From the NCBI RefSeq assembly GCF_009931435.1, contig NZ_CP043414.1: a stretch of 64,000 bases of DNA, one strand, 5' to 3'. The translations under genes and the position numbers were made by a program. Shown here piece after piece: positions 36,830 to 42,330 of the stretch. The notes below the pieces were generated by a model that saw only the letters and a list, made by a program, of their open reading frames with translations, did no database searches and was not told the origin of the DNA. Within the stretch, counting starts at the first letter, position 1; each line of letters starts with the position of its first letter. This DNA comes from Escherichia coli. GTDB lineage: Bacteria; Pseudomonadota; Gammaproteobacteria; Enterobacterales; Enterobacteriaceae.

Positions 36830-37461
36830 AACTTCCGGAGATCCCTGAATTCCCGCTTCCCACCTGGATGAATAAAGGCGAGCCGTTAACGCTGGCACAT
36901 TCATCGCATCGCTACTGGGAAAAGGTATACAGCTGGCTGACGTGGCCACTACAGCAGATTGATGTCGACACCTGCGCAGAGCCTTTACTTAACCTGCTGG
37001 CTTATCAGCGCAATATCACCCGATTTAAAGGGGAGCCGGTTTCGTTATTTCGCTTAAGGGTGAAACACGCGTTTATTAACGCTCAGGACTCGGGCGAACG
37101 CGCCGGATTCGAACGCATCTTTAAGCGTCTTGGCGTGGGAGACGTTAAAACACTGGAACGGCAGCTGCAGCATGACTGGGACGTTATTTTACTGCGCATT
37201 AATGACACCCAGTTAAGTGAAAACAATGCGCTGATGATGCAGCTCGTGCGCCAGTATGGCCGTACCTGCAGGCGCTATTTCTTTCAGGTAATCAATACAA
37301 CCACCGCCCGGCTGACAGCCAGCACATTCGACGGCCATTACAGGTATCACACAGCAGAAGCAACGGTGAGAAAGGACACCATCTGGTTAACCGCTTCGCT
37401 ACAGGCAGGACATTACGGCCTGTCCGTGGAACATTACACATTACAGGCAGATGAAGCATGA
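36826..37461 (+). CDS. Tail protein I-like baseplate component (211 aa)
   Basis: Gene order; translationally coupled. Confidence 0.6.
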   Translation: MKLPEIPEFPLPTWMNKGEPLTLAHSSHRYWEKVYSWLTWPLQQIDVDTCAEPLLNLLAYQRNITRFKGEPVSLFRLRVKHAFINAQDSGERAGFERIFKRLGVGDVKTLERQLQHDWDVILLRINDTQLSENNALMMQLVRQYGRTCRRYFFQVINTTTARLTASTFDGHYRYHTAEATVRKDTIWLTASLQAGHYGLSVEHYTLQADEA

Positions 37462-39158
37462 GCACGATTATTACTGAACAGTACGAACACTGGTGCGCAA
37501 ATCAAATCATCAGTGGAAAACCTGCGCGCCCGGATACATTTGTTTTTGCATATATTCCGGGACAGGATGAATCCGCAGAGATCCCCCGCGATGAGATACT
37601 CCCTGATGAATCCATGATTCAGTATCGTGCGCCGGTCACCCAGTACGGCCACCTGTCGCCGAACGCGACCGCGTTTTCCATCATTCTGGACACGACAGTC
37701 GGCGACTTCGAATACAACTGGATCGGTCTGCTGAACGAAGAAAGCGGCGTGCTCTGCATGATTGCACACACACCTCGTCAGCAAAAAATTAAAACAGCGA
37801 ACGGCGTGCAGGGAAACAACCTGATCCGCACATTTTCCATGGAGTTTGACGGCGCAGCCGCAGCAATGCATATCGATGTCAGCGCTGATGTCTGGCAGAT
37901 TGATTTCACTGCACGCCTTGCAGGAATGGATGAGGCCCGCCGGCTGCTGGCGTTTGATCACTACGGTGAAGCCGCTTTTCTGGGGGATGGTTTTCAGGTC
38001 AGCTATCAGGACGGTACCGCTACTGTTGCCGCCGGCGTGGGTTATGTGGGAGGTCTGCGCGTCAGTCTGCGCGAACCTTACAGCCTGCCGGCTGCGGTCG
38101 GGGATACCCTCTGGATTGATGCAAGCTGGCAGGGATTTGTTACTGGCGAATGGAATACCGTTTTTACGTTCTGCGCCCGCCAGGAACATGCGTCTTATAC
38201 AGACGGTAACGGCTTCCGACACTTTGTCGCGCCACTTGCAAAAATGACAGGAGACGGCCCACAGGACCTGCGCCCGGAGACACCCGACGAAGAACAAAGC
38301 AATGCACTGGCAGAGCACGAAAAATCCCGCCATCATCCGGACGCAACACTGCAGGAGAAAGGCTTTGCGCAGTACAGCAACTCCACCGACAGCGACGCAG
38401 AAGACCGCGCCGCCACATCAAAGGCAGTAAAAGCCGCAATGGATAAAGCAAAAGACGCTGTTGAGCGCGACGGCGACACCATGACCGGGGAGCTGAAAAT
38501 CCGTGGTGTTAATGCACTGAGGATTTTCAACGAAGCTTTTGGCCTGATTTTTCGTCGTTCGGAAGAGTGCCTGCACCTTATCCCTACCAGTGAAGGTCAG
38601 GGCGAGAATGGCGATATTGGCCCCCTGCGTCCGTTCACTATTAATTTGCGGACGGGTGAAGTTTCCATGTTACACGCAGTATCTGTTGGCGGTGGTTCGA
38701 AAGTTAACGGTGCGTTGGGTATCGGCGTTCAGAATGCGCTGGGCGGAAACTCAATTGCTTTCGGGGATAACGATACCGGCCTGAAACAGAATGGTGATGG
38801 CCTGCTGGATGTTTATGCCAATAGCGTGCATGTGTTGCGTTTTCAGAGTGGCAGCATTCAGAGTAATAAACCTGTAAACGTTACCGGGCGGGTAACACCG
38901 TCAGACTACGGAAACTTTGATGCCCGTTACCAGACCAAAACAGGCGGCGTGCAGGATGTGCGTTATGGTTCCGAAATGTATTACAACCCGGGAGGTAACC
39001 AGATATCCTGGACATTTCGCTCACCTTCAGGCCATGGATTATCTGGTATTAATGTGCAGGAAACCGGAAGTAATTCGGCAGATAACATCGGCGGCGTGTA
39101 TTACCGACCGCTTCAGAAACTGATTAACGGCACCTGGTATAACGTGGCGAGTGTTTAA
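37458..39158 (+). CDS. Tail fibre protein 1 (566 aa)
   Basis: Position after I; N-terminal domain paralogous to fibre 2; Gly-rich C-terminal region. Confidence 0.8.
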   Translation: MSTIITEQYEHWCANQIISGKPARPDTFVFAYIPGQDESAEIPRDEILPDESMIQYRAPVTQYGHLSPNATAFSIILDTTVGDFEYNWIGLLNEESGVLCMIAHTPRQQKIKTANGVQGNNLIRTFSMEFDGAAAAMHIDVSADVWQIDFTARLAGMDEARRLLAFDHYGEAAFLGDGFQVSYQDGTATVAAGVGYVGGLRVSLREPYSLPAAVGDTLWIDASWQGFVTGEWNTVFTFCARQEHASYTDGNGFRHFVAPLAKMTGDGPQDLRPETPDEEQSNALAEHEKSRHHPDATLQEKGFAQYSNSTDSDAEDRAATSKAVKAAMDKAKDAVERDGDTMTGELKIRGVNALRIFNEAFGLIFRRSEECLHLIPTSEGQGENGDIGPLRPFTINLRTGEVSMLHAVSVGGGSKVNGALGIGVQNALGGNSIAFGDNDTGLKQNGDGLLDVYANSVHVLRFQSGSIQSNKPVNVTGRVTPSDYGNFDARYQTKTGGVQDVRYGSEMYYNPGGNQISWTFRSPSGHGLSGINVQETGSNSADNIGGVYYRPLQKLINGTWYNVASV

Positions 39159-41758: not shown

Positions 41759-42330
41759 TGAAAATAATCGACATAAAGGCGATGAAATACCTGGAAGACG
41801 GGTCTGTTTCCTGTGAAGTGTTGTTTGGAGGGCGGGCTGATTATATTCCTTATCGTGCAGTGGAAAATGATTCTGCTGCATCAGGCCAGCGGGTATGGGG
41901 AACACTGATGAGCGGTGAGTTTGGTGAAATCATCCCCTTCACTGTAACAGCAGAGATGCTGGACAAAGAAAAAGAACTGAAAAAAGAGGAAATCAGGCGC
42001 TGGCGAACAGAACAGGAGGCGCAGCCGTTCACATTCGAATGGAACAGCAGCACATGGAATGGAGGAAAATCCTCACTGGAACGCTTATTCCCGGCAGTGA
42101 TGGCAGCAAAATCTGGTGTGGCACACAATGCCACAGTATGGAGTGATGCAAATAACCAACAAATTAAATTGTCACAACAAAAGCTGGAAGAACTACTTAC
42201 GGCAATGGTGCAGGCTCAGGCTGCACGCAACGATGAGATTTACCTGCGCCAGCGTGAGATGAAAAACACGCTGGCCACACTGAATAACATTGCTGCAATT
42301 AGGGCATTTCAGGTGGGCAAAGCAGAATGA
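41758..42330 (+). CDS. Tail fibre assembly chaperone 2 (190 aa, start at MKIIDIKAMKY)
   Basis: Downstream of fibre 2; internal Met coupled to fibre stop. Confidence 0.65.
   Translation: MKIIDIKAMKYLEDGSVSCEVLFGGRADYIPYRAVENDSAASGQRVWGTLMSGEFGEIIPFTVTAEMLDKEKELKKEEIRRWRTEQEAQPFTFEWNSSTWNGGKSSLERLFPAVMAAKSGVAHNATVWSDANNQQIKLSQQKLEELLTAMVQAQAARNDEIYLRQREMKNTLATLNNIAAIRAFQVGKAE

What the first reader, a model, noticed from the sequence alone, without database searches (positions are those of the whole stretch)
37458..42330. Two tandem tail-fibre/chaperone pairs with shared N-terminal domain and an internally duplicated receptor-binding region
Fibre 1 and fibre 2 begin with paralogous N-terminal domains (MSTIITEQYEHW... 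versus MSALLTKAFEKW...; shared PARPD motif and spacing) but diverge afterwards. Fibre 2 contains two related internal segments (RDRTEGCLAIPGAFGFGHIF... and YDRSEGVVAIPGTLGYGGYY...). Each fibre has its own downstream assembly chaperone. Unlike Mu/P1/P2 systems that switch fibres by DNA inversion, both are encoded co-directionally with no invertase, implying simultaneous display or dual host range.
Basis: seen in the sequence. Interest (0 to 1): 0.5.

Follow-up and report, generated by a model that had tools for sequence, protein, structure and literature searches.

The report
Two-fibre host-recognition module in prophage
An E. coli prophage of the HP1/P2 family carries two different tail-fibre genes, each with its own helper gene, where its sequenced relatives carry one; the design is real and conserved but is a variation on well-known phage modularity, not a new principle.

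Summary
Fibre 1 (37458-39158) and fibre 2 (39719-41758) share a PF12571 N-terminal domain (BLASTP E 3e-22; z = 40 against shuffles). Fibre 2 contains two related ~135-aa segments (E 3e-16; z = 28). Each fibre is followed by an unrelated chaperone: PF02413/Tfa, then DUF4376. No invertase or inverted repeats are present.

The element is an HP1-like Peduoviridae prophage. Sequenced relatives (Evevirus, Irrigatiovirus, HP1/HP2) have one fibre and one chaperone at this position. Fibre 1 is their orthologue. Fibre 2 is an extra slot built on a distinct, purifying-selected adaptor subfamily, which always lies second in the 24 related loci examined. It occurs in about 48 of 5,426 complete E. coli genomes and in no isolated phage record.

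The internal duplication is not local. It is a knob module of lambdoid side-tail-fibre proteins, which carry three copies.

The tandem order (Mu-S-like tip, Tfa, knob fibre, DUF4376) already exists in phiP27, Rac-SA53 and vB_Apl-pPE4, with unrelated adaptors.

Co-expression is strongly implied. Simultaneous display and dual host range remain untested.

Verdict: a new variant of a known kind, of modest interest.

The parts
35645..36829 (+). Baseplate wedge protein gpJ/gp47 family (context: fibre-docking baseplate).
   Evidence: 64% identical to Evevirus ev239 gpJ and 54% to HP2 orf29. PGAP names it 'baseplate J/gp47' in the identical prophage.
36826..37461 (+). gpI-like baseplate/tail protein, immediately upstream of fibre 1.
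   Evidence: phrog_1228, E 2e-81. 52-54% identical to ev239 and SI7 gpI.
37458..37937 (+). Fibre 1 adaptor: PF12571 N-terminal domain (aa 1-160).
   Evidence: Pfam E 5e-29. 46-49% identical to the adaptor of the single fibre of ev239 and SI7. dN/dS 0.03-0.11.
37938..38462 (+). Fibre 1 conserved proximal shaft (aa 161-335), including a PF03406 repeat.
   Evidence: 91-100% conserved across the related loci. Alignment with SI7, ev239 and HP2 fibres runs to about aa 350. PF03406 at aa 297-335, E 2e-13.
38463..39158 (+). Fibre 1 exchangeable tip (aa 336-566), Mu gpS / T4 gp37-like receptor-binding region.
   Evidence: Matches PDB 5yvq Mu tail fibre S, E 2.6e-19. 77-79% identical to the C-termini of phiP27 L54 and Rac-SA53 tail1. 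45-100% identical among lineage members.
39161..39712 (+). Chaperone 1: Tfa/gpG-type tail-fibre assembly protein.
   Evidence: PF02413, E 7e-21. phrog_136, E 1.5e-56. 69% identical to phiP27 L55.
39719..40168 (+). Fibre 2 adaptor: divergent PF12571 domain (aa 1-150), the 'F2-type' subfamily.
40208..40618 (+). Fibre 2 knob A (aa 164-300).
40619..41014 (+). Fibre 2 shaft module (aa 301-432).
   Evidence: 68-84% identical to the shaft modules of Stf-type fibres. aa 341-403 match PDB 9d93 'tail collar fibers gp4', E 9e-10.
41015..41446 (+). Fibre 2 knob B (aa 433-576).
   Evidence: 33% identical to knob A. Homologous knobs occur in the other alleles.
41447..41758 (+). Fibre 2 C-terminal tip (aa 577-679), the allele-specific and likely specificity-determining end.
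   Evidence: Among 120 homologues, a BLAST match (E 1e-4 or better) only to P0001 and P0002. Knob B plus tip align at 47% to vB_Apl-pPE4 gp69.
41758..42330 (+). Chaperone 2: DUF4376 protein. Its start overlaps the fibre 2 stop (TAATG).
   Evidence: PF14301, E 2.8e-12. 54-56% identical to phiP27 L57 and Rac-SA53 tail4. A DUF4376 protein is the essential chaperone of the Alteromonas phage V22 RBP (PMC7289586).
42327..45281 (+). Downstream conserved HP1-type baseplate genes: 237-aa (HP2 orf33 homologue), 191-aa (HP1_ORF34 family) and 565-aa hub/spike protein. These close the tail operon.
   Evidence: phrog_1677, phrog_1398 and phrog_2258. Same order in ev239, SI7 and HP2. ATGA overlap with chaperone 2.

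Best explanation
This is the host-recognition module of an HP1-like (Peduoviridae) E. coli prophage that has two receptor-binding-protein slots where its sequenced relatives have one.

Slot 1 is the ancestral fibre. It consists of a PF12571 baseplate adaptor, a conserved proximal shaft and an exchangeable Mu-S/gp37-like tip, which is matured by a Tfa chaperone.

Slot 2 is an added cassette. It consists of a paralogous, strongly diverged PF12571 adaptor joined directly to exchangeable distal modules taken from the lambdoid side-tail-fibre pool (shaft and knob units plus a tip). In this allele it is matured by a DUF4376 chaperone.

All genes sit in one tightly packed late operon, so both fibres are made together (inferred). 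Both are most likely mounted on the baseplate through their adaptors (inferred). That would give the virion two receptor specificities, either for a broader host range or for two-step adsorption. Whether the two adaptors use separate docking sites (6 + 6 fibres) or compete for the same six sites is not resolved.
For: Shown here:
- Both fibres have PF12571 N-termini that are homologous to each other.
- Fibre 1 is the orthologue of the single fibre of ev239, SI7 and HP2: 36-44% identity over about 350 aa, against 26-31% for fibre 2.
- Single-fibre architecture in ev239, SI7, HP2, an E. coli Evevirus-like prophage and L030.
- The F2-type adaptor always lies in the second slot, after fibre 1 and Tfa and before the orf33 homologue. 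This holds in 17 IMG/VR loci, 5 E. coli loci and 2 more distant loci.
- It is present in 48 of 5,426 complete E. coli genomes. About 45 of those genomes carry this lineage's gpI and fibre 1 adaptor at 95% identity or more.
- The adaptor is under purifying selection (dN/dS about 0.1) and the ORFs are intact.
- Both slots show cassette-like tip replacement. Fibre 2 forms of 285, 350, 419, 430, 518, 645, 679 and 842 aa occur, with or without DUF4376. The fibre 1 tip is 45-100% identical among members.
- Gene junctions are 2 nt, 6 nt, a TAATG overlap and an ATGA overlap. No sigma-70-like promoter site lies in 35000-46100.
- The AF2 model of the adaptor resembles baseplate and fibre-adaptor modules.

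From the literature:
- The DUF3751/PF12571 N-terminus of P2-like fibres and R pyocin fibres is regarded as the baseplate-contact domain. The part downstream of it can be swapped to retarget the particle (PMC6363177, PMC4684702, PMC11464564).
- A DUF4376 protein is an essential RBP chaperone in phage V22.
Against: - There is no direct evidence that fibre 2 is in virions. No isolated phage of this lineage exists in the 50,697-record collection.
- No solved structure shows how PF12571 docks; the sequence profile finds no PDB chain. The number and identity of docking sites is therefore unknown.
- I found no lineage-specific addition to the baseplate that would mark a second socket. The C-terminal extension of gpI is partly shared by a single-fibre relative.
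- Several fibre 2 alleles lack any recognisable chaperone.
Confidence: 0.6

Rival explanations
1. Both fibres are made, but their homologous adaptors compete for the same six baseplate sockets. Each virion then carries a random mixture, and the lysate is a bet-hedging population, rather than every particle carrying 6 + 6 fibres.
For: The adaptors are homologous and share subclade-specific residues (the PARPD motif and the G-x-L-C motif). I found no dual-lineage-specific insertion in gpJ, gpI, orf33, orf34 or the hub that would create a second socket.
Against: The two adaptors are only 33% identical. Fibre 2 lacks two loops and forms a discrete, separately conserved subfamily. That pattern suits a different contact surface better than a shared one.
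Confidence: 0.25
2. Only one fibre is used at a time. An unrecognised regulatory step (translational coupling failure, an RNA structure or a host factor) makes fibre 2 conditional, giving the functional equivalent of an inversion switch without an invertase.
For: No tool result supports it. It remains possible only because expression was not measured.
Against: The intergenic gap before fibre 2 is 6 nt, and the downstream start codons overlap the preceding stops. The essential baseplate genes orf33, orf34 and the hub lie downstream of fibre 2 in the same orientation, so transcription must pass through it. There are no inverted repeats or invertase.
Confidence: 0.07
3. Fibre 2 and its chaperone are a passenger remnant picked up by recombination with a phiP27- or Rac-type dual module, and they are not assembled on this tail.
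For: The tip1/Tfa/knob-fibre/DUF4376 order is shared with phiP27, Rac-SA53 and pPE4, at up to 89% nucleotide identity in parts. PGAP annotates fibre 2 as two pseudogenes in NZ_CP046539.
Against: - The ORF is intact and 100% identical there, so the pseudogene call is an annotation artefact.
- The adaptor is PF12571-type, not the PF08400-type found in those phages, so it has been fitted to this kind of tail.
- dN/dS is about 0.1 across alleles whose dS reaches saturation.
- The slot is retained in essentially every member of the lineage and in a prophage of another genus.
Confidence: 0.08

Closest known systems
Haemophilus phages HP1/HP2 and enterobacterial relatives (Evevirus ESSI2_ev239, Irrigatiovirus SI7): orf29-orf35 tail module
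   Same: Same gene order: tape measure, DUF2590, gpJ, gpI, fibre, chaperone, orf33, orf34, hub. gpJ is 54-65% identical. Fibre 1 is orthologous over its first ~350 aa.
   Different: These phages have one fibre and one chaperone. The window has a second fibre/chaperone cassette inserted between chaperone 1 and the orf33 homologue.
Stx2e phage phiP27 L54-L57 (also Rac-SA53 tail1-4 and vB_Apl-pPE4 gp67-70)
   Same: Tandem, co-directional arrangement of a fibre with a Mu-S-like tip, Tfa, a knob-type fibre and a DUF4376 protein, with no invertase. The tip is 77-79% identical, Tfa 69% in phiP27, 84% in vB_Apl-pPE4 and 34% in Rac-SA53, and the DUF4376 protein 53-56%.
   Different: The tails and baseplates are different. 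In phiP27 and Rac-SA53, the N-terminal adaptors of the two fibres show no detectable similarity to each other (no significant BLAST match). In all three phages the second fibre starts with the same MSVVISG... sequence; Stf-type homologues of fibre 2 carry PF08400 at their N-terminus. Here both adaptors are PF12571.
Mu G segment / P1 C segment invertible fibre switches (S-U / S'-U' with Gin or Cin)
   Same: Two alternative fibre tips, each with its own Tfa-type chaperone. The fibre 1 tip is homologous to Mu S.
   Different: No invertase, no inverted repeats, and both cassettes on the same strand, each with a complete gene and its own adaptor. Both can be expressed at once rather than alternately.
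P2 gpH/gpG and R-type pyocin Prf15 with its chaperone
   Same: A PF12571/DUF3751 N-terminal baseplate-attachment domain followed by a swappable distal part, with a downstream chaperone (PMC6363177, PMC4684702).
   Different: These are described as having a single large trimeric fibre type (PMC6363177). Here there are two PF12571 fibres in one tail operon.
Lambdoid side tail fibres (Stf-type, PF08400 N-terminus, about 1,030-1,047 aa in E. coli prophages)
   Same: The shaft and knob modules of fibre 2 (aa ~164-576) are 45-60% identical to theirs.
   Different: The adaptor differs (PF12571, not PF08400). Fibre 2 has two knobs and one shaft, against three knobs and two shafts.

Membership tests
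P2/HP1-type (Peduoviridae) tail fibre | N-terminal PF12571 (DUF3751) domain. | tested here: met
   Fibre 1 E 5e-29 and fibre 2 E 1e-8.
P2/HP1-type (Peduoviridae) tail fibre | Gene lies directly after the gpJ-gpI baseplate wedge genes and is followed by a chaperone gene. | tested here: met
   Met for fibre 1. Fibre 2 lies two genes further on, after chaperone 1, and has its own chaperone.
P2/HP1-type (Peduoviridae) tail fibre | A single fibre type per tail module. | tested here: not met
   Two PF12571 fibre genes are present. The 78 phage records with this adaptor have only one real copy each.
P2/HP1-type (Peduoviridae) tail fibre | Trimeric fibre physically attached to the baseplate. | not testable with these tools
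   Needs virion proteomics or cryo-EM. The only indirect support is the fold resemblance of the adaptor to baseplate and fibre-adaptor proteins.
Tfa / lambda gpK-type tail-fibre assembly chaperone | PF02413 domain, about 180 aa, encoded immediately downstream of its fibre. | tested here: met
   Chaperone 1: PF02413 E 7e-21; 2-nt gap after fibre 1.
DUF4376 tail-fibre chaperone (Alteromonas phage V22 gp27 type) | C-terminal DUF4376 domain, about 190 aa, encoded immediately downstream of the RBP. | tested here: met
   Chaperone 2: PF14301 E 2.8e-12 at aa 71-176; its start overlaps the fibre 2 stop.
DUF4376 tail-fibre chaperone (Alteromonas phage V22 gp27 type) | Required for folding or activity of the cognate fibre. 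| not testable with these tools
   Shown experimentally only for V22 gp26/gp27 (PMC7289586).
Invertible fibre-switch (Mu G / P1 C / e14 P segment) | Serine invertase gene (Gin/Cin/Pin/Hin) adjacent to the fibre genes. | tested here: not met
   No such gene in the PGAP annotation of the 99.7%-identical prophage. The only recombinase found in the window is a tyrosine integrase at 11434-12456.
Invertible fibre-switch (Mu G / P1 C / e14 P segment) | Inverted repeats flanking alternative fibre ends encoded on opposite strands. | tested here: not met
   The longest inverted repeat in 36000-46000 is 23 nt at 78% complementarity. All genes are on the + strand.
Lambdoid side tail fibre (Stf) | PF08400 'prophage tail fibre N-terminal' domain. 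| tested here: not met
   The only Pfam hit in fibre 2 is PF12571. The distal modules are homologous to Stf-type proteins.

The most novel reading that the evidence does not exclude
The F2-type PF12571 adaptor is a dedicated second docking module. It would convert a simple six-fibre HP1/P2-type baseplate into one carrying two independent fibre sets (6 + 6). Its slot would act as a plug-and-play site that samples distal modules from the lambdoid side-tail-fibre pool. If so, it would be a natural, compact solution for dual-receptor recognition on a minimal contractile tail. It would also offer a ready-made second attachment handle for engineering P2-like phages and R-type tailocins.
Probability: 0.3. 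Interest if true: 0.5.

Novelty: new variant of a known kind. Interest (0 to 1): 0.3.

Why it matters
P2-like phages and R-type tailocins are described as carrying a single fibre type, and they are retargeted by swapping the part downstream of the PF12571 adaptor. A natural lineage with a second, diverged PF12571 adaptor raises two possibilities. Such simple baseplates may accept a second receptor-binding protein, or a lysate may be a mixture of particle types. Either is relevant to predicting host range from prophage sequence and to building dual-specificity phages or tailocins.

The practical by-products are also useful. The second fibre is mis-annotated in RefSeq as pseudogenes and as 'shikimate transporter'. 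The knob and shaft units explain the internal repeats seen in many E. coli prophage fibres.

The general principles involved are long established: modular fibres, horizontal exchange of tips, and phages with more than one RBP.

Tried and rejected
1. I looked for a baseplate feature specific to the dual-fibre lineage that could mark a second socket. gpI has a ~17-aa C-terminal extension, and the orf34 homologue also has one, relative to ev239, SI7 and HP2. A single-fibre relative (L030) has part of the gpI extension, so I dropped this as evidence.

2. I first took the PARPD motif shared by the two adaptors as a sign of co-adaptation in the dual lineage. It is also present in the single fibre of L030. 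It therefore only places the origin of the fibre 2 adaptor inside that subclade.

3. ESSI2_ev239 appeared to have a second PF12571 match. This is a chimeric fragment followed by Illumina adapter sequence at the end of the record, not a second fibre.

4. Sequence and profile searches of the PDB for a solved PF12571 domain found nothing, so the docking geometry could not be inferred.

6. NCBIfam gave no family for any of the four proteins.

7. Literature searches for two-fibre Peduoviridae found no description of this arrangement.

8. I did not model the tip of fibre 2. Only one homologue (P0002, 90% identical) matched it by BLAST with the tip as query, so the alignment would have been too shallow.
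Full report
**What is there.** Between 37458 and 42330 the + strand carries four intact ORFs:
- fibre 1, 566 aa
- chaperone 1, 183 aa
- fibre 2, 679 aa
- chaperone 2, 190 aa from the ATG at 41758

They are packed with a 2-nt gap, a 6-nt gap and a TAATG overlap. Chaperone 2 overlaps the next gene by ATGA. No sigma-70-like promoter site lies between 35000 and 46100.

**Checking the observation.**
- The two fibres align over their first ~150-215 residues at 30% identity, E 3e-22. The Smith-Waterman score is 203 against 27 +/- 4.3 for shuffled sequence, z = 40.
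- Both N-termini are Pfam PF12571. Beyond that domain the fibres are unrelated (z = 0.07).
- Fibre 2 aligns to itself, aa 164-297 against aa 433-575, at 33% identity, E 3e-16, z = 28.
- The chaperones are unrelated to each other. The first is a Tfa-type PF02413 protein. The second is a DUF4376 protein.
- There are no meaningful inverted repeats. There is no invertase in the annotated, 99.7%-identical prophage of NZ_CP046539.

**What the element is.** The window is E. coli chromosome carrying a prophage between pheA and bamD. It has a tyrosine integrase at 11434-12456, next to pheA.

The prophage has P2-type head genes and an HP1-type tail module: tape measure, DUF2590, gpJ, gpI, fibres, then homologues of HP2 orf33, orf34 and orf35. 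gpJ is 64% identical to Evevirus ESSI2_ev239, 59% to Salmonella phage SI7 and 54% to HP2.

Those phages have exactly one fibre and one chaperone between gpI and the orf33 homologue. The same is true of an Evevirus-like E. coli prophage (L027) and of a more distant prophage (L030).

Fibre 1 is the orthologue of that single fibre, at 36-44% identity over about 350 aa. The fibre 2 adaptor is only 26-31% identical to any of them and 33% to fibre 1. Slot 2 is therefore the addition.

**The second slot is a conserved feature of a lineage.** I examined 17 IMG/VR loci, 5 E. coli genome loci and 2 more distant loci. In all of them the F2-type adaptor (56-100% identical) lies second, after fibre 1 and Tfa and before the orf33 homologue. 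One of these prophages sits in a host whose pheT is only 75% identical to that of E. coli, so it is in another genus.

Among 5,426 complete E. coli genomes:
- 48 carry the F2-type adaptor.
- About 45 carry this lineage's gpI and fibre 1 adaptor at 95% identity or more.
- Another 41 match gpI and the fibre 1 adaptor at only 60-80% identity; the one I examined (L027) is an Evevirus-like, single-fibre prophage.

In a library of 1.84 billion representative proteins the adaptor forms a discrete group. There are 19 clusters at 56% identity or more, with total lengths of 283-775 aa among the complete proteins. The next matches fall to 41% or less.

None of 50,697 phage records has an adaptor more than 31% identical to it. 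None has two real PF12571 copies.

The adaptor is under purifying selection, with dN/dS of 0.07-0.25 at dS up to saturation. The fibre 1 adaptor gives 0.03-0.11.

The fibre 2 adaptor shares the PARPD and G-x-L-C motifs with fibre 1 and with the single fibre of L030, but not with ev239, SI7 or HP2. It lacks two short loops. This fits an origin by duplication within that subclade, followed by divergence.

**Both slots behave like receptor-binding slots.**
- In fibre 1, the adaptor and proximal shaft are 91-100% conserved. The tip is 45-100% identical and Tfa 36-100%.
- In fibre 2, everything after the adaptor is replaced between alleles. Forms of 285, 350, 419, 430, 518, 645, 679 and 842 aa occur.
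- Some fibre 2 alleles have a DUF4376 chaperone and some have none.
- The 285-aa form is followed by an unrelated 352-aa ORF. It resembles the short 'a-type' DUF3751 proteins described for tailocins (PMC4684702).

**The internal repeat.** The repeated segment is not a duplication peculiar to this gene. With the intervening ~135-aa shaft segment, it forms a unit found in hundreds of E. coli and Salmonella Stf-type fibres. These have a PF08400 N-terminus, are about 1,030-1,047 aa long, and are often mislabelled 'shikimate transporter'. They have the pattern shaft, knob, knob, shaft, knob.

The 430-aa fibre 2 alleles have a single knob.

The segment is best described as a fibre knob module. A role in receptor binding is possible but not shown. 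The allele-specific C-terminal ~100 aa is the likelier specificity determinant.

**The tandem arrangement is already in published genomes.** The following have the same order, with homologous tips (77-79%), Tfa (69% in phiP27, 84% in vB_Apl-pPE4, 34% in Rac-SA53) and DUF4376 proteins (53-56%):
- phiP27 L54-L57
- Rac-SA53 tail1-4
- 'Actinobacillus' phage vB_Apl-pPE4 gp67-70

Their two fibres have unrelated adaptors, and the second fibre begins with the conserved MSVVISG... N-terminus; Stf-type homologues of fibre 2 carry PF08400 at that end. What is particular to the window's lineage is that the second fibre has been fitted with a second PF12571 adaptor, which suits an HP1-type baseplate.

**How it most likely works.** The literature treats the PF12571/DUF3751 N-terminus of P2-like and R-pyocin fibres as the baseplate-contact domain, and the rest as swappable (PMC6363177, PMC4684702, PMC11464564).

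Essential baseplate genes lie downstream in the same operon, so fibre 2 must be transcribed with the tail genes. I therefore think both fibres are made together and both are mounted on the baseplate, giving two specificities (confidence about 0.6).

The operon structure, homology, conservation and modular exchange are shown. Co-expression and attachment are inferred. The stoichiometry (6 + 6, or competition for six sites) is open. I found no baseplate insertion specific to the dual lineage, and no solved PF12571 structure exists to guide a docking model.

**Verdict.** The finding is real and the description is accurate. The interpretation needs the corrections above: the nature of the repeat, the fact that P2 has no inversion switch, and the precedent in phiP27-type phages. 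It is a new variant of a known kind: a second, diverged PF12571-adaptor fibre slot in an uncultured HP1-like prophage lineage. Interest is modest.

Noticed in passing
window 45869-50808: The right arm of the prophage carries variable cargo. A 489-aa ATPase matches the PADLOC candidate defence protein HEC-04 (E 6e-204) and lies in a 34% GC island (47330-48799). A YafO-like toxin (46507-46887) is preceded by an unassigned 212-aa ORF. There is also a DNA methyltransferase fragment (48960-49346) and an IS4 transposase fragment (50029-50808). The otherwise 99.7%-identical prophage in NZ_CP046539 instead has Hok/Gef, Com and a DNA methyltransferase at this position.
   Followed up: partly
L001 22920-24431 (NZ_CP046539.1 4880360-4881871), equivalent to window 39719-41230: RefSeq/PGAP splits fibre 2 into two 'incomplete' pseudogenes and names one 'shikimate transporter'. 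The ORF is intact and 100% identical to the window's 679-aa protein. Many Stf-type homologues carry the same wrong name.
   Followed up: yes
L003 16006-16167 (NC_049392.1 / LR597637.1, record positions about 3-164): The end of the ESSI2_ev239 genome record holds a duplicated fragment of the phage's own fibre adaptor, fused to sequence that translates as SRRRHTR. That is Illumina adapter. It is an assembly artefact that mimics a second fibre gene.
   Followed up: yes
L002 (PP818812.1 41311-45966): 'Actinobacillus phage vB_Apl-pPE4' has fibre and chaperone genes up to 89% identical in DNA to E. coli prophage modules, and the same gene order as E. coli phage Rac-SA53. The host assignment looks doubtful, or the module was transferred very recently.
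   Followed up: no
window 39719-40141 compared with 37458-37937, across L007, L018, L022 and others: Between prophages whose fibre 1 adaptor is nearly identical (dS about 0.05), the fibre 2 adaptor differs by dS of 0.5 or more. This suggests that the second cassette, adaptor included, is exchanged as a whole, whereas in fibre 1 the exchange points lie after the proximal shaft.
   Followed up: partly
L006 4420-6360 (NZ_CM129038.1): One allele of slot 2 is a 285-aa protein (adaptor, a short shaft piece and a repetitive tail) followed by an unrelated 352-aa ORF with no DUF4376 gene. It may be a two-protein fibre, like the 'a-type' short DUF3751 proteins of tailocins and phages VP882 and phiHAP-1.
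   Followed up: no
L001 3673-4951 (window about 20515-21800): This integrated prophage encodes ParM and a plasmid partition/stability protein next to a P2 gpA-like replication endonuclease. That hints at a plasmid-prophage ancestry or an alternative lifestyle.
   Followed up: no
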